From a virus (taxonomy: Duplodnaviria; Heunggongvirae; Uroviricota; Caudoviricetes), in IMG/VR virus record IMGVR_UViG_3300014520_000035: 7,538 nucleotides of DNA; one strand, written 5' to 3'. Position numbers and translations under genes: made by a program. The notes under the pieces are model-generated. The model ran no database searches, had not been told where the DNA came from, and was given only the letters and a program-made list of their open reading frames with translations. This document shows, one piece after another, positions 112 through 4,137 of this stretch (positions within the stretch are counted from its first letter, which is position 1; every line of letters starts with the position of its first letter).

Positions 112-126
112 AGGAAAGAATATTCT

Positions 127-459
127 ATGAACCCTTATATTTATCTTGGTGGTGCAATACTTGCAGAGGTCATTGGTACAACCTTAATGAAGTTTTCAGA
201 AGGTTTTACACGGTTATGGCCATCTGTTGGTACAATTATTTGTTATTGTGCATCATTCTGGTTATTAGCTCAGACGCTGGCTTATATTCCTACAGGGATT
301 GCTTATGCTATCTGGTCAGGAGTCGGTATTGTCCTGATTAGCTTACTGTCATGGGGACTTTTCGGCCAACGGCTGGACCTGCCAGCCATTATAGGCATGA
401 TGTTGATTTGTGCCGGTGTGTTGGTTATTAATTTATTGTCACGAAGCACACCACATTAA
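127..459 (+). CDS. emrE: SMR-family multidrug efflux transporter EmrE (110 aa)
   Basis: Translation from ATG 127 (MNPYIYLGGAILAEVIGTTLMKFSEGF...LLSRSTPH) matches E. coli EmrE as I recall it, four hydrophobic helices with the conserved glutamate in helix 1 (AEVIGT). AGGAAAG Shine-Dalgarno 8-14 nt upstream. The ORF-track start at 73 adds an unconserved 18-aa extension and is probably not the real start. Confidence 0.93.
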   Translation: MNPYIYLGGAILAEVIGTTLMKFSEGFTRLWPSVGTIICYCASFWLLAQTLAYIPTGIAYAIWSGVGIVLISLLSWGLFGQRLDLPAIIGMMLICAGVLVINLLSRSTPH

Positions 460-714: not shown

Positions 715-2241
715 ATGAAAAAAGCCATAGCATATATGCGATTTTCATCACCAGGTCAGATGTCTGGCGACTCATTAAACCGACAGAGAAGACTTATTGC
801 TGAATGGTTAAAGGTAAATAGTGATTATTATCTTGATACCATAACATATGAAGATTTAGGATTAAGTGCATTCAAAGGAAAGCATGCACAATCAGGAGCT
901 TTTTCGGAATTTTTAGATGCTATAGAGCATGGTTATATATTGCCAGGAACTACATTGTTAGTTGAAAGTCTGGACAGACTTTCAAGAGAAAAAGTCGGTG
1001 AAGCGATTGAACGTCTGAAATTGATTTTGAATCACGGTATTGATGTTATAACTCTTTGCGACAATACAGTCTATAATATTGACTCTTTGAATGAGCCATA
1101 TTCATTAATAAAAGCCATACTTATAGCACAAAGGGCAAATGAAGAAAGCGAGATAAAGTCAAGTCGGGTTAAATTATCATGGAAGAAAAAACGGCAGGAT
1201 GCACTGGAATCAGGTACGATTATGACGGCGTCTTGTCCGAGATGGCTCTCCTTAGATGACAAAAGAACGGCTTTTGTTCCAGACCCCGACAGGGTGAAAA
1301 CTATTGAGCTAATTTTTAAACTCAGGATGGAAAGGCGCTCATTGAATGCAATAGCCAAGTATTTAAATGATCATGCTGTAAAGAATTTCTCAGGAAAAGA
1401 AAGTGCATGGGGACCTTCTGTAATTGAAAAATTATTAGCGAATAAAGCTCTGATAGGTATATGCGTACCTTCATATCGTGCAAGAGGTAAAGGAATAAGT
1501 GAAATCGCTGGCTATTATCCCAGAGTCATATCAGATGATTTGTTTTACGCTGTACAGGAAATTCGGTTGGCACCTTTTGGTATTAGCAATAGTAGCAAAA
1601 ATCCTATGTTGATAAATCTACTTCGAACAGTTATGAAGTGCGAGGCTTGTGGTAATACCATGATTGTTCATGCGGTATCTAGAAGTTTGCATGGCTATTA
1701 TGTTTGTCCGATGAGAAGACTGCATCGATGTGACAGGCCATCAATAAAGAGAGATTTGGTTGATTATAATATCATTAATGAGTTGCTTTTTAATTGTAGT
1801 AAAATCCAACCAGTTGAAAACAAGAAAGATGCTAATGAAACTTTAGAGTTGAAAATTATTGAGCTCCAGATGAAAATTAATAATTTAATTGCTGCATTAT
1901 CTGTTGCGCCTGAAGTTACCGCTATAGCAGAAAAAATCAGAGTATTAGATAAGGAATTACGAAGGGCTTCTGTATCATTAAAAACTTTGAAGAGTAAAGC
2001 GGTGAGTTCACTTGGTGATTTTCATGCTATTGACTTAACCAGTAAAAATGGGCGAGAGCTATGTCGTACACTTGCCTATAAAACATTCGAAAAAATCATA
2101 ATCAATACAGATAATAAAACCTGTGATATCTATTTTATGAATGGCATTGTTTTTAAACACTATCCTTTAATGAAAACAATATCCGCCCAGCAGGCGATAA
2201 GTACTCTCAAATATATGGTTGATGGTGAGGTTTATTTTTGA
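715..2241 (+). CDS. ybcK: Large serine recombinase (resolvase/invertase catalytic domain plus recombinase domain and Cys-rich zinc-ribbon region), DLP12 YbcK-like, 508 aa
   Basis: N-terminal AIAYMRFSSPGQ fits the serine-recombinase catalytic motif (Y-x-R-x-S-x-x-x-Q). C-terminal half has a CxxC ... C ... C cluster (CEACG ... CPMRRLHRC) and a predicted coiled-coil, as in large serine recombinases. The 255-bp gap to emrE and the length match my recollection of K-12 ybcK. AT-rich codon usage. Confidence 0.88.
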   Translation: MKKAIAYMRFSSPGQMSGDSLNRQRRLIAEWLKVNSDYYLDTITYEDLGLSAFKGKHAQSGAFSEFLDAIEHGYILPGTTLLVESLDRLSREKVGEAIERLKLILNHGIDVITLCDNTVYNIDSLNEPYSLIKAILIAQRANEESEIKSSRVKLSWKKKRQDALESGTIMTASCPRWLSLDDKRTAFVPDPDRVKTIELIFKLRMERRSLNAIAKYLNDHAVKNFSGKESAWGPSVIEKLLANKALIGICVPSYRARGKGISEIAGYYPRVISDDLFYAVQEIRLAPFGISNSSKNPMLINLLRTVMKCEACGNTMIVHAVSRSLHGYYVCPMRRLHRCDRPSIKRDLVDYNIINELLFNCSKIQPVENKKDANETLELKIIELQMKINNLIAALSVAPEVTAIAEKIRVLDKELRRASVSLKTLKSKAVSSLGDFHAIDLTSKNGRELCRTLAYKTFEKIIINTDNKTCDIYFMNGIVFKHYPLMKTISAQQAISTLKYMVDGEVYF

Positions 2242-2265
2242 GTAATAATCACTTTTTCAACCGTG

Positions 2266-2343
2266 CTATAGTAAGAAAGTTAGGTAAGTACATTAAAATT
2301 ATCTATCCTGAACGAAGCGTCCTGAGCTATGGTTTTACTATAG
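2266..2343. repeat. 9-bp perfect inverted repeat ctatagtaa (2266-2274) / ttactatag (2335-2343), each containing the palindrome CTATAG, bracketing the probable promoter region of the first cassette ORF
   Basis: Read directly from sequence; candidate operator pair or recombination half-sites. Function not established. Confidence 0.3.
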
Positions 2344-2352
2344 AGACTGCCA

Positions 2353-2676
2353 ATGGATGCTGGCGTTCTCGTTCTAGCAGTTCAACAATACCCAATCACA
2401 AAACAATTCACTGATAACGAACTTTGCACACTCGCCTGGTTATGGCGAGCAGGGAATGTGATGTTAATTACCTACCAGAACGTTACTCCTCTTCTTCAGG
2501 TTGCGGAGCATCGTGAAGCTGGTCGCTTCACTTCTATCGAGCAAGAATATCCCCAGATACTCAATAAGGCACAGGCAATCCTTGCCAGAGAAACGGCACA
2601 TGTAAAATTCCGGCCGTGGCAGGATGATAAGTGGAGTCGAGTTTTGCCGCATTTACGTTCGGATCGATTACAGTAG
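2353..2676 (+). CDS. Hypothetical protein (107 aa; alternative start ATG 2461 gives 71 aa)
   Basis: Open frame from the six-frame track with no family I recognise. The in-frame ATG at 2461 has a better Shine-Dalgarno (AGGGA, about 6 nt upstream) than the ATG at 2353. Occupies the position where K-12 carries ybcL. Confidence 0.45.
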   Translation: MDAGVLVLAVQQYPITKQFTDNELCTLAWLWRAGNVMLITYQNVTPLLQVAEHREAGRFTSIEQEYPQILNKAQAILARETAHVKFRPWQDDKWSRVLPHLRSDRLQ

Positions 2677-2699
2677 ATTCCAATTAACAATGAGAAACA

Positions 2700-3125
2700 C
2701 ATAGCCACCCCGTGGTATTGAAACCATATAATGTTGGATTTGAAAACAGATCTTTTTCCATGTATTAATAACTACATCCCCGCGAGTGATTCAAAAAGGA
2801 GGGCCCAATTTTGTCCGAGTTTTTGTATTCCCCCGCATGCCGCTGCGGAGCACTACATCTGAGTGTCTGACTAGGGGATAAAATTAGACTGGATAGTGAG
2901 AAGAAAGTGGCGTGCTAGGCTGTGCCGAGTGCTACCAGTACACCCTGGGGGTGTGCAGCTTTCGCCGAGACTGTAGTGGGTATCGGTTAATGCACGAAAA
3001 ACCGAGAGGTCAGACAACCAATTTGCCGTAGGATTGTTTCCGGTGCGATACCGGTGTACTAACTGAAAGCAATGCGAAAAAGCATAAACTCGGTCCTTCA
3101 GTCGCCCTACACACTATTTACTAAG
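2700..3125. ncRNA. Candidate structured non-coding RNA, or long structured leader of the downstream ORF; strand undetermined
   Basis: About 430 bp with stop codons dense in all six frames (no ORF in the track; longest I find is 43 codons, 2731-2862), yet noticeably more G+C-rich than the two AT-rich ORFs flanking it, with many short G/C-rich complementary segments. No tandem repeats and no tRNA or tmRNA signatures. Confidence 0.3.
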
Positions 3126-3137
3126 AAGGGCTAAAGC

Positions 3138-3494
3138 ATGGATACAATTATCACATGGATGGGAGATCGTCTGTTGGGGTGGATAACAAACAAATCCGAT
3201 CTGCGGCAGAGGGCAATCACTGGATTAACTCCTGCGATTTATTCAACAATTTTATATACTGAAAAATTAAAACGTGGTGAGCCTAATAACCCAAACGAAG
3301 AAGAAAAACTTTATAGGCTTTGGTATGAAGCGTCTTCCCAAGTCGTAGACTTTGATCGAGAGCTGGCTAAAAGATGTTTAGATAAATCAGAATATTGGCT
3401 TCATTCTGAATTATATAGCCCTGAGAAAGTTGGAGAGCTAAACATTTCTTTGGTTGGTATGAAGGCAACGCTTGAAGGAATAAAGCACAATTAA
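3138..3494 (+). CDS. Hypothetical protein (118 aa), low-GC accessory gene
   Basis: ORF with Shine-Dalgarno AAGGG 6-10 nt upstream of ATG 3138; strongly AT-rich codon usage unlike the downstream nin genes; no family recognised (charged, likely soluble). Confidence 0.55.
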   Translation: MDTIITWMGDRLLGWITNKSDLRQRAITGLTPAIYSTILYTEKLKRGEPNNPNEEEKLYRLWYEASSQVVDFDRELAKRCLDKSEYWLHSELYSPEKVGELNISLVGMKATLEGIKHN

Positions 3495-3681
3495 AACCTT
3501 TGATTTGCGATAATCAACTCGCCATAATCATGTCATCGGAGCCTGAACAACTCCGGTGACTTCTGCGCTAAACGGGGACGTTTATGCGCACACACAATCC
3601 AAACTCTCTTCTCCCTCCACAGATGCAGAAATGCACCTGCGATATATTGTATCCAGCGTTTGACCTCTGCGGAGGTGAAGC

Positions 3682-4137
3682 GTGAATCTCCCACAAGATG
3701 GCATCAAATTACATCGCGGTAACTTCACCGCTATCGGTCGGCAGATCCAGCCTTATCTGGAGGAGGGCAAATGCTTTCGCATGGTGCTTAAACCGTGGCG
3801 TGAGAAACGCAGTCTTTCCCAGAATGCACTCAGCCACATGTGGTACAGCGAAATCAGTGAATACCTCATCAGCAGGGGTAAAACGTTCGCTACTCCAGCT
3901 TGGGTAAAAGATGCTCTCAAACACACATATCTCGGTTATGAAACCAAAGACCTGGTTGATGTTGTAACCGGTGATATCACCACTATCCAGTCGTTACGCC
4001 ATACCTCCGATCTTGATACCGGAGAGATGTATGTCTTCCTGTGTAAGGTTGAAGCCTGGGCGGTGAATATTGGCTGCCACCTGACTATTCCGCAGAGCTG
4101 CGAGTTCCAGCTGCTCCGCGACAAGCAGGAGGCGTAA
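3682..4137 (+). CDS. ybcN: NinB/Orf-family protein YbcN (151 aa), GTG start
   Basis: Translation [39 protein letters not shown]... matches DLP12 YbcN as I recall it; GGAGG Shine-Dalgarno at 3671-3675 before GTG 3682. Confidence 0.9.

What the first reader, a model, noticed from the sequence alone, without database searches (positions are those of the whole stretch)
3138..3494. 118-aa low-GC orphan protein immediately downstream of the non-coding block
Strong Shine-Dalgarno and a clean ORF, with codon usage clearly more AT-rich than the adjacent nin genes, which points to horizontal acquisition. I recognise no motif. Its tight linkage to the upstream structured block suggests an RNA-protein pair or an RNA-regulated effector.
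Basis: partly seen in the sequence, partly recalled or inferred. Interest (0 to 1): 0.5.

Follow-up and report, generated by a model that had tools for sequence, protein, structure and literature searches.

The report
Phage accessory gene behind new RNA
The 118-codon gene is a real, mobile accessory gene of lambda-like phages of unknown function. It is one of several interchangeable genes that sit directly behind a previously undescribed ~330-nt structured RNA gene, and it is not an obligatory partner of that RNA.

Summary
Window 3138-3494 (+) is a clean 118-aa ORF with a Shine-Dalgarno site (AAGAAGGG, 3123-3130). Its GC is 38% (GC3 32%), against 50-53% in the nin genes. Intact orthologues in other genera give dN/dS of 0.06-0.30.

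It is not a true orphan. It matches PHROG 12412 over its full length and belongs to a family of about 340 clusters, mostly 120-135-aa stand-alone proteins. In a minority the same domain is fused to TIR, multi-pass membrane or hydrolase-like modules. The predicted fold is a soluble four-helix bundle with no specific structural relative.

The upstream block (about 2776-3107) is a structured RNA gene with strong covariation, a promoter-like element and no Rfam match.

All close ORF118 relatives lie directly 3' of this RNA, where the RNA's terminator is missing. That suggests co-transcription.

The RNA also occurs with at least four unrelated downstream genes, or with none. In about 40% of E. coli copies ORF118 is a deletion remnant while the RNA stays 98-99% identical. 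Distant ORF118 homologues have no RNA.

The best reading is an AT-rich "moron" cargo gene riding on the RNA's transcription unit, probably a binding or regulatory protein in phage conflict. An obligate RNA-protein pair is unlikely.

The parts
2740..2768 (+). Promoter-like element of the RNA gene: -35 TTGAAA (2740-2745), 17-nt spacer, -10 TATTAA (2763-2768). An alternative reading is the extended -10 TGtATTAAT.
   Evidence: Read by eye. The same -35/17 nt/-10 arrangement (TTGAAT/TTGATA/TTGTAT ... TTTAAT/TTAAAT) sits at the same distance from the RNA 5' end in all variants, although the spacer sequence differs. The automatic scan did not list it, because its rule needs T at position 6 of the -10. 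This part is inferred, not shown.
2776..3107 (+). In this locus it has no terminator of its own.
   Evidence: Thirteen distinct variants were aligned (A4). In the RNAalifold structure 98.3% of cells are paired. Twenty of 93 pairs carry compensatory changes, against 2-6 in register-shifted controls, and the covariation score is 0.252 against about 0.05. Rfam 15 gives no match at E<=1 on the whole window or at E<=10 on the block alone. There is no tRNA or tmRNA and no tandem repeats.
3123..3130 (+). Shine-Dalgarno-like site AAGAAGGG, 7 nt upstream of the ATG.
   Evidence: Sequence. Folding 3090-3165 shows no significant sequestering structure (z = -0.9).
3138..3494 (+). ORF118 coding sequence: 118 aa, 13.7 kDa, pI 5.7, no predicted membrane segment.
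   Evidence: AlphaFold2 with a 27-sequence alignment gives pLDDT 88.8 and pTM 0.77, with helices 2-45, 52-69, 74-88 and 95-117. Family-invariant residues are T37, Y40, E55, W62, C80 and W87, with K83 nearly invariant.
3320..3330 (+). First copy of the 11-bp direct repeat TTGGTATGAAG, left end-point of the 134-nt deletion seen in the 66-aa remnant alleles.
   Evidence: Repeat family D3, spacing 134 nt. Alignment of the window with the remnant allele L023.
3454..3464 (+). Second copy of the 11-bp direct repeat, right end-point of the deletion.

Best explanation
ORF118 is a genuine, horizontally mobile accessory ('moron'-type) gene of lambdoid phages. It occupies a cargo slot directly 3' of an independently maintained, previously undescribed structured RNA gene, between the replication/ren module and ninB/ybcN. 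In most phages the RNA unit is promoter - about 330-nt RNA - intrinsic terminator, followed within about 25 nt by one of several unrelated AT-rich genes. In ORF118 loci the terminator is absent and the ORF with its Shine-Dalgarno site follows the RNA after 30 nt. ORF118 is therefore most likely made from the RNA's own transcript as well as from early rightward phage transcription; this step is inferred. The product is a soluble, acidic four-helix bundle. It is a stand-alone copy of a widespread uncharacterised domain that in distant relatives is fused to TIR, multi-pass membrane or alpha/beta-hydrolase-like modules. I infer that it acts by binding a protein or small ligand rather than by catalysis, as a sensor or regulatory type module in phage-host or phage-phage conflict. 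I slightly favour a prophage-side exclusion or defence-modulating role because of the slot it occupies; a counter-defence decoy is nearly as likely. It does not need the RNA and the RNA does not need it.
For: - **Real gene under selection:** dN/dS is 0.06-0.30 across genera, and start, frame and length are conserved.
- **Mobile and AT-rich:** GC is 0.38-0.41 in all orthologues, while the adjacent RNA is 0.51-0.55. It is present in only about 3% of complete E. coli genomes and in no GTDB species representative. Upstream genes differ between loci: P, DUF1627, a 241-aa protein, or a P22AR_C fragment.
- **Cargo slot:** downstream of the RNA lie ORF118, a 183-aa protein (PHROG 27260), a 178/191-aa membrane protein, a 93-aa plus 162-aa pair, a 177-aa protein, or nothing before DUF1367. 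RNA variants about 90% identical to each other carry different cargo: L010 has ORF118, L047/L121 has the membrane protein.
- **Terminator:** it is present after the RNA in the 183-aa and membrane-protein loci, in L018 (downstream gene not seen) and in the cargo-less L021. It is absent in every ORF118 locus.
- **RNA is independent:** it stays 98-99% identical where ORF118 is a 134-nt deletion remnant.
- **Family and fusions:** 343 representatives were found. Of the 148 I inspected, 118 are <=145 aa and 23 are >180 aa. P0072 carries TIR_2 at E=3.8e-18 C-terminal to the domain and matches ThsB and SAVED-TIR PADLOC models. P0053's C-terminus matches PADLOC candidate PDC-S60 at 8e-13. Eleven of these proteins have C-terminal hydrophobic (predicted membrane) segments, eight of them with three or four. 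P0149 has weak alpha/beta-hydrolase hits.
Against: - There are no expression data. The promoter is read by eye and was not listed by the automatic scan, so co-transcription is inferred only from the missing terminator.
- The functional inference rests on domain fusions in relatives that are only about 25-30% identical, and on neighbours that themselves have no assigned function.
- Contexts of distant stand-alone homologues are heterogeneous, and some look like ordinary chromosomal neighbourhoods.
- Every close ORF118 relative (>=69% identity) found so far is next to the RNA. A functional dependence of the protein on the RNA is therefore not excluded.
Confidence: 0.5

Rival explanations
1. RNA-protein module. 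The structured RNA and ORF118 work together: as a ribonucleoprotein, as an RNA antitoxin or regulator with a protein effector (type III toxin-antitoxin-like), or more broadly as a conserved RNA that partners with interchangeable effectors, ORF118 being one of them.
For: - Every close ORF118 relative is directly 3' of the RNA.
- Two other cargo families also keep a co-diverged RNA at 54-68% protein identity: L142, L143 and L152.
- The layout promoter - RNA - terminator - gene within about 25 nt resembles toxI-terminator-toxN. That comparison rests on my own knowledge of ToxIN.
- The cargo ATGs leave no room for a promoter of their own after the terminator.
Against: - The RNA occurs with unrelated proteins and with none (L021).
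- It stays 98-99% identical where ORF118 has decayed.
- ORF118 homologues at 51% identity and below, and cargo homologues L144 and L153, lack it.
- The RNA has no tandem repeats.
- ORF118 is acidic (pI 5.7), matches no toxin or defence model, and has no nuclease-like fold.
- In ORF118 loci there is no terminator to set an RNA:protein ratio.
Confidence: 0.17
2. Counter-defence decoy or sponge. As a phage-borne stand-alone copy of a domain that bacteria fuse to TIR, membrane or hydrolase effectors, ORF118 would titrate the trigger (a phage protein or a signalling molecule) or poison assembly of the host effector. This would resemble viral domain-only inhibitors and nucleotide sponges such as Tad and Acb proteins.
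For: - Fusion architectures of distant homologues.
- The gene has the same orientation as the early rightward operon, so it would be made early in infection.
- It is small, soluble and all-helical.
Against: - About 80% of the family representatives I inspected are stand-alone proteins, and several lie in non-phage chromosomal contexts. That is unusual for a phage-specific inhibitor.
- There is no structural match in the viral structure library at E<=0.001.
- No sequence relative has a solved structure.
- The gene decays readily in prophages.
Confidence: 0.2
3. Dispensable passenger. ORF118 has no current function in most hosts and persists only by linkage to the selected RNA gene.
For: About 40% of E. 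coli copies are deletion remnants carrying extra non-synonymous changes and a 3-nt deletion, while the RNA is kept.
Against: Intact copies show clear purifying selection over saturating synonymous divergence in at least three RNA lineages and several genera. Residues are invariant across a family of more than 300 clusters.
Confidence: 0.1

Closest known systems
PHROG 12412 (with PHROG 28881, and PHROG 8527 = the 66-aa remnant): phage protein families of unknown function
   Same: Full-length sequence membership: E=4.9e-71 over positions 1-118 of 118. Distant homologues also hit PHROG 12412 and 28881.
   Different: These families carry no functional annotation, so membership names the gene but does not explain it.
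Lambdoid-phage 'morons' and accessory cargo in the ren-ninB variable region (for example PD-lambda-1 in phage PhiR26_1)
   Same: An AT-rich extra gene between conserved modules, present in some phages and absent from close relatives, and exchanged between backbones.
   Different: A classical moron brings its own promoter and terminator (my own knowledge). ORF118 appears to borrow the promoter of an RNA gene and to have displaced that gene's terminator. It matches no known defence model.
Type III toxin-antitoxin systems (ToxIN, AbiQ/antiQ, CptIN)
   Same: The order is non-coding RNA first and protein second, on one strand. In sister loci there is a terminator between RNA and gene.
   Different: The RNA is a single 330-nt multi-helix molecule, not an array of short repeats. 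The protein is an acidic helical bundle with no ToxN-like or other defence-model match. The RNA persists without the protein and with unrelated proteins.
Histidine phosphotransfer (HPt / CheA P1) four-helix bundles
   Different: Sequence identity is 8-9%. De novo designed bundles score about the same. No histidine is among the family-invariant residues, which are T37, Y40, E55, W62, C80 and W87. This is generic fold similarity only.
N-terminal sensor or adaptor domains of single-chain bacterial immune effectors (TIR, membrane or lipase fusions)
   Same: Distant homologues place the ORF118-type domain in front of TIR_2, TIR-like/PDC-S60-like, 3-4 predicted membrane segments, or a hydrolase-like module.
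   Different: ORF118 and about 80% of the family representatives I inspected have no effector attached. No member has been studied. In a few proteins the domain is C-terminal.

Membership tests
PHROG 12412 | Significant full-length match to the family profile | tested here: met
   E=4.9e-71, 237 bits, residues 1-118 against profile positions 1-118 of 118.
Type III toxin-antitoxin (ToxIN-like) | Antitoxin RNA made of tandem direct repeats | tested here: not met
   Tandem Repeats Finder finds nothing in 2600-3600 at score >=30. The repeat search finds only short two-copy families, none tandem.
Type III toxin-antitoxin (ToxIN-like) | Intrinsic terminator between the RNA and the toxin gene | tested here: not met
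   No terminator lies between 3107 and 3138 in the window or in any ORF118 locus. Terminators are present in sister loci with other cargo.
Type III toxin-antitoxin (ToxIN-like) | Protein is a ToxN/AbiQ/CptN-type endoribonuclease | tested here: not met
   No PADLOC, Pfam or NCBIfam match. The fold is an all-alpha four-helix bundle.
Type III toxin-antitoxin (ToxIN-like) | Protein is toxic and is neutralised by the RNA | not testable with these tools
   This needs induction experiments with and without region 2776-3107.
Retron | Reverse transcriptase gene adjacent to the structured ncRNA | tested here: not met
   None of the eight proteins scanned, which include the ORFs flanking the RNA, has a reverse-transcriptase domain. 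Related loci show none either.
Known Rfam RNA family (for the upstream block) | Covariance-model match | tested here: not met
   No match at E<=1 on the whole window or at E<=10 on 2740-3160. ARAGORN finds nothing.
Lambdoid moron / accessory cargo gene | Present or absent between otherwise collinear conserved modules, with deviant base composition | tested here: met
   The variable segment lies between ybcK and the ylcH-ybcN region: only 95 of 2955 matching genomes cover >=80% of window 2200-3700. GC is 0.38 against 0.50-0.53.
Lambdoid moron / accessory cargo gene | Own promoter and own terminator | tested here: inconclusive
   No promoter-like site lies between the RNA and the ATG, and no convincing terminator follows the stop codon. 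Expression is inferred to come from the RNA's promoter-like element at 2740-2768, which was read by eye.
HPt / CheA-P1 phosphotransfer domain | Conserved phospho-accepting histidine on a solvent-exposed helix | tested here: not met
   No invariant or nearly invariant histidine in alignments A5 and A6. Similarity is at fold level only.
Sensor or adaptor domain of TIR/membrane/hydrolase immune effectors | The same domain covalently fused to recognised effector domains in homologues | tested here: met
   P0072: the domain at residues 16-107 plus TIR_2 at 128-232, E=3.8e-18. P0053: C-terminus matches PDC-S60 at 8e-13. Eleven proteins have C-terminal hydrophobic (predicted membrane) segments, eight of them with three or four.
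Sensor or adaptor domain of TIR/membrane/hydrolase immune effectors | Demonstrated role in immunity (ligand or trigger binding) | not testable with these tools
   No member is characterised. Literature searches found nothing.
Known phage anti-defence sponges (Tad1/Tad2/Acb2-type) | Sequence or fold similarity to a characterised member | tested here: not met
   No sequence match to any solved structure at a meaningful E-value. No match in the BFVD viral structure library at E<=0.001.

The most novel reading that the evidence does not exclude
The ~330-nt structured RNA and the slot directly behind it form a new kind of modular phage conflict element: a conserved, independently transcribed, pseudoknotted RNA that works with interchangeable small effector proteins. 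The effectors would be ORF118, an RxxxxH-motif protein, a membrane protein and others. The terminator, or its loss as in the ORF118 version, would set the ratio of RNA to protein. ORF118 would then be the RNA-dependent member of a domain family that elsewhere is wired directly to TIR, membrane or hydrolase effectors.
Probability: 0.17. Interest if true: 0.85.

Novelty: new member of a known kind. Interest (0 to 1): 0.45.

Why it matters
Taken alone, ORF118 is one more uncharacterised phage accessory gene. Three things make it more useful than that.

1. It marks a cargo slot tied to a structured RNA class that is absent from Rfam and has unusually clean covariation. That RNA is probably the more important object in this window.
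2. The ORF118 domain family is large and unannotated. It recurs fused to TIR, membrane and hydrolase-like modules, so it is a candidate new sensor or adaptor domain of bacterial immunity, or a phage mimic of one.
3. The locus is experimentally tractable. A deposited phage genome, Escherichia phage Turner, carries the same RNA and ORF118 at 99% identity. Natural alleles also exist with an intact RNA and a deleted ORF118.

Tried and rejected
**Searches that found nothing for ORF118**
- Pfam, NCBIfam and PADLOC scans of ORF118.
- PDB sequence searches with the single sequence and with a profile.
- Foldseek against viral structures. The AFDB50 library was unavailable.

**Searches that found nothing for the RNA**
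- Rfam at permissive thresholds and ARAGORN.
- The single-sequence fold energy of the RNA is not significant (z = -0.8). The case for structure rests on covariation only.
- A long-range pairing suggested by an inverted repeat (2815-2825 with 3083-3093) was rejected, because three variants break it without compensation.

**Collections and literature**
- GTDB species-representative genomes contain neither the RNA motif nor an ORF118 relative. Alignment A5 was too diverse to be used for a locus scan.
- Literature searches by sequence string, accession, PHROG id and topic found nothing relevant. One possibly relevant 2026 preprint on mining non-coding elements could not be opened.

**Alternative cargo and distant homologues**
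- The alternative cargo proteins have no Pfam or PADLOC match, and the 183-aa one has no PDB sequence match. My reading of an RxxxxH (HEPN-like) motif in the 183-aa protein and a PIN-like N-terminus in the 177-aa protein is unverified.
- Contexts of distant homologues show no conserved partner gene.

**Ideas considered and dropped**
- Retron: no reverse transcriptase.
- Type III toxin-antitoxin system: no repeats and no nuclease.
- Riboswitch-type leader for ORF118: the RNA has its own terminator in most lineages and precedes unrelated genes.
- HK022 put-like antiterminator RNA: the RNA has its own promoter and an immediate terminator.
- Pseudogene of a protein: excluded by the compensatory base-pair changes.

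Full report
**Setting**

The window is the early-right/nin region of a DLP12-like lambdoid phage. It is 100% identical over 2200-3700 to the chromosome of E. coli MB56 and 99% identical to Escherichia phage Turner. The gene order is:
- emrE
- ybcK, a large serine recombinase (715-2241)
- a 107-aa fragment with a P22 antirepressor C-terminal domain (2353-2676)
- a non-coding stretch
- ORF118 (3138-3494)
- a small ylcH-like ORF
- ybcN/ninB-like, ninE, ybcO, rusA, ylcG and quuD
- an ompC-like porin on the other strand

**Observation**

An AAGAAGGG Shine-Dalgarno site lies 7 nt before the ATG. ORF118 has GC 0.381 and GC3 0.319. The nin genes have 0.50-0.53 and the RNA block 0.51.

It is a real gene. 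Orthologues at 69-79% identity in Obesumbacterium, Enterobacter and metagenomes keep the start, frame and length. Synonymous sites are close to saturation while dN/dS is 0.06-0.30. All orthologues are AT-rich at 0.375-0.415 GC, as are the other genes found at this position (0.37-0.42). This fits a pool of mobile cargo genes.

**Not a strict orphan**

Pfam, NCBIfam and PADLOC give nothing. PHROG 12412 matches end to end at 4.9e-71. A word-indexed search finds only 21 clusters, all apparently close ORF118 relatives; the few that carry a source name are Enterobacterales. An exhaustive profile search finds 343 cluster representatives at E<=1e-3.

Of the 148 representatives I inspected, 118 are at most 145 aa and so are stand-alone. 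Twenty-three exceed 180 aa. Among the long ones:
- P0072 has a TIR_2 domain (3.8e-18) after the ORF118-type domain, and matches ThsB and SAVED-TIR models.
- P0053 and P0060 have a TIR-like C-terminus. For P0053 this region matches the PADLOC candidate PDC-S60 at 8e-13.
- Eleven have C-terminal hydrophobic (predicted membrane) segments, eight of them with three or four.
- P0149 has weak alpha/beta-hydrolase hits.

Invariant residues across the family are T37, Y40, E55, W62, C80 and W87, with K83 nearly invariant.

**Structure**

AlphaFold2 with 12 sequences gave pLDDT 75. With 27 sequences, including distant relatives, it gave pLDDT 88.8 and pTM 0.77. The model is an up-down four-helix bundle.

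**The upstream block is an RNA gene**

Sixty-four of the 68 IMG/VR stretches that share a 16-mer, and all 25 metagenome stretches that share a 23-mer, contain the block. Thirteen distinct variants align over about 332 nt.

The consensus structure has 93 pairs in 18 helices, and 98.3% of cells are paired. Twenty pairs show compensatory changes, against 2-6 when the 3' partners are shifted by 1-3 columns. The covariation score is 0.252 against about 0.05, and 0 of 500 shuffles reach it.

Three more divergent copies (L142, L143, L152) change GUCUGAC/GUCAGAC to GUCUGAU/AUCAGAU. This is a compensatory change that supports a long-range pseudoknot between two otherwise invariant segments.

A -35/17-nt/-10 arrangement is kept at a fixed distance upstream in all variants, although the spacer sequence differs. 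I read this by eye, and the scan's stricter rule did not list it.

In the 183-aa and membrane-protein loci, in L018 and in the cargo-less L021, the RNA ends in a clear hairpin-plus-T-run terminator. Rfam 15 has no match even at E<=10. There is no tRNA or tmRNA and there are no tandem repeats.

The block diverges far more slowly (about 80% identity) than the synonymous sites of the adjacent ORF.

**Relation between the RNA and ORF118**

Going from ORF to RNA, the link is complete in every set where I could check it:
- every close homologue locus fetched by exact protein look-up has the RNA directly upstream, in different phage backbones;
- all 25 IMG/VR relatives are on contigs that also carry the RNA;
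- in complete E. coli genomes the block is in 159 of 5426 and ORF DNA in 158 (not cross-checked genome by genome).

In these loci the terminator is missing and a homologous junction (ATTTACTnAAAnnGGC...ATG) follows the RNA. This points to a single capture event and to read-through expression.

Going from RNA to ORF, the link is loose:
- The same RNA is followed by a 183-aa protein (PHROG 27260), a 178/191-aa membrane protein, a 93-aa plus 162-aa pair, a 177-aa protein, or directly by the nin-region gene DUF1367.
- RNA variants about 90% identical to each other carry different cargo.
- Only 96 of the 158 E. coli genomes have a full-length ORF. About 59 carry only the first 193 nt, at about 92% identity, while their RNA is 98-99% identical.
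- The remnant arises from a 134-nt, out-of-frame deletion between two copies of TTGGTATGAAG (3320-3330 and 3454-3464). It also carries a 3-nt deletion and non-synonymous changes.

More distant relatives lack the RNA:
- A 51%-identical homologue sits between a theta-like gene and an excisionase-like gene next to an integrase.
- Family members sampled from other bacteria are solitary genes near toxin-antitoxin modules, on integrative or conjugative elements, or in ordinary chromosomal neighbourhoods. nhmmer finds no RNA in the seven of these loci that I tested (L083-L089).

Two other cargo families behave the same way. Relatives at 54-68% identity keep a co-diverged RNA, while some at 43-64% identity do not.

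**Interpretation**

The simplest account is this. The RNA gene is the selected, independent unit. The position just behind it, in front of ninB/DUF1367, is an exchange point for AT-rich accessory genes. ORF118 is one such gene that replaced the terminator and is now expressed as a 3' extension of the RNA transcript.

What ORF118 does is inferred, not shown. It is a soluble helical-bundle domain that relatives attach to TIR, membrane and hydrolase-like modules, which is most easily read as a binding or regulatory module of conflict systems.

I cannot decide whether the phage copy protects the lysogen or counteracts host immunity. Protection fits the other genes in the slot and the likely prophage expression. 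Counter-defence fits a decoy made of a stand-alone copy of an effector-linked domain.

A dedicated RNA-protein pair remains possible, because no close ORF118 relative has yet been seen away from the RNA. Against it are the independence of the RNA, the acidic non-nuclease protein and the lack of repeats.

**Verdict**

The adjacent RNA is the more novel feature and deserves its own follow-up.

Noticed in passing
window 2776-3107 (+); also L004, L005, L007, L010, L018, L021, L041, L047, L050, L129, L142, L152: About 330-nt structured RNA with its own promoter-like element and, in most lineages, its own terminator. It shows strong covariation and has no Rfam match. It occurs in lambdoid phages and prophages of Escherichia, Klebsiella, Enterobacter and Obesumbacterium. 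This looks like an undescribed RNA class and is probably the main object at this locus.
   Followed up: partly
window 2865-2871 (GUCUGAC) and 3009-3015 (GUCAGAC): Two invariant heptamers are perfectly complementary. In the divergent copies L142, L143 and L152 both change together (GUCUGAU / AUCAGAU). This suggests a long-range pseudoknot joining the 5' domain to the 3' domain of the RNA.
   Followed up: partly
L004 3385-3936; L123, L126, L128, L140-L144: An alternative cargo gene sits behind the same RNA in Klebsiella-type phages: a 183-aa protein (PHROG 27260) with an RLRHNLLH segment that I read as a possible HEPN RxxxxH motif. It has no Pfam, PADLOC or PDB sequence match, so this reading is unverified.
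   Followed up: partly
L041, L063, L121, L135, L138, L145-L152: Another alternative cargo: a 178/191-aa protein with hydrophobic stretches at both the N- and C-termini that look like membrane segments. It starts about 25 nt after the RNA's terminator. A 43%-identical homologue (L153) lies next to an integrase and has no RNA.
   Followed up: partly
L129 (metagenome Ga0157371_10004407), gene starting 27 nt after the end of the 371-nt block query: A further terminator-less variant of the RNA is followed by a 177-aa protein whose N-terminus (MKNIIIDSNAW...) looks PIN-like to me. There is no Pfam match.
   Followed up: partly
window 3320-3330 and 3454-3464: An 11-bp direct repeat, TTGGTATGAAG, lies inside ORF118. 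Recombination between the two copies explains the recurrent 134-nt frameshifting deletion that yields the 66-aa 'PHROG 8527' protein annotated in many E. coli prophages.
   Followed up: yes
window 2353-2676 (+): A 107-aa ORF consists only of a P22 antirepressor C-terminal domain (PF10548, 1.1e-15; PHROG 7640). It appears to be a 5'-truncated Rha/Ant-type gene and marks the left part of the variable segment.
   Followed up: no
window 124-459 and 715-2241; phage Turner (L002): The multidrug efflux gene emrE and the large serine recombinase ybcK are carried, 99% identical, by a deposited phage genome (Escherichia phage Turner). So this DLP12-like module with an efflux gene is also present in a phage record, not only in chromosomal prophages.
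   Followed up: no
L089 4757-5405; L154 3701-4405: The most distant ORF118-family members (P0183, P0184) are preceded by a small 83-90-aa gene. In L089 that gene has a QSregVF_b (PF12843) hit. This may be a conserved two-gene unit in that subfamily.
   Followed up: no
P0009 and P0014: Some database gene calls extend ORF118 homologues upstream through the 3' part of the RNA (…TESDAKKHKLGPPVA…). This is a gene-calling artefact that translates the conserved RNA sequence.
   Followed up: yes
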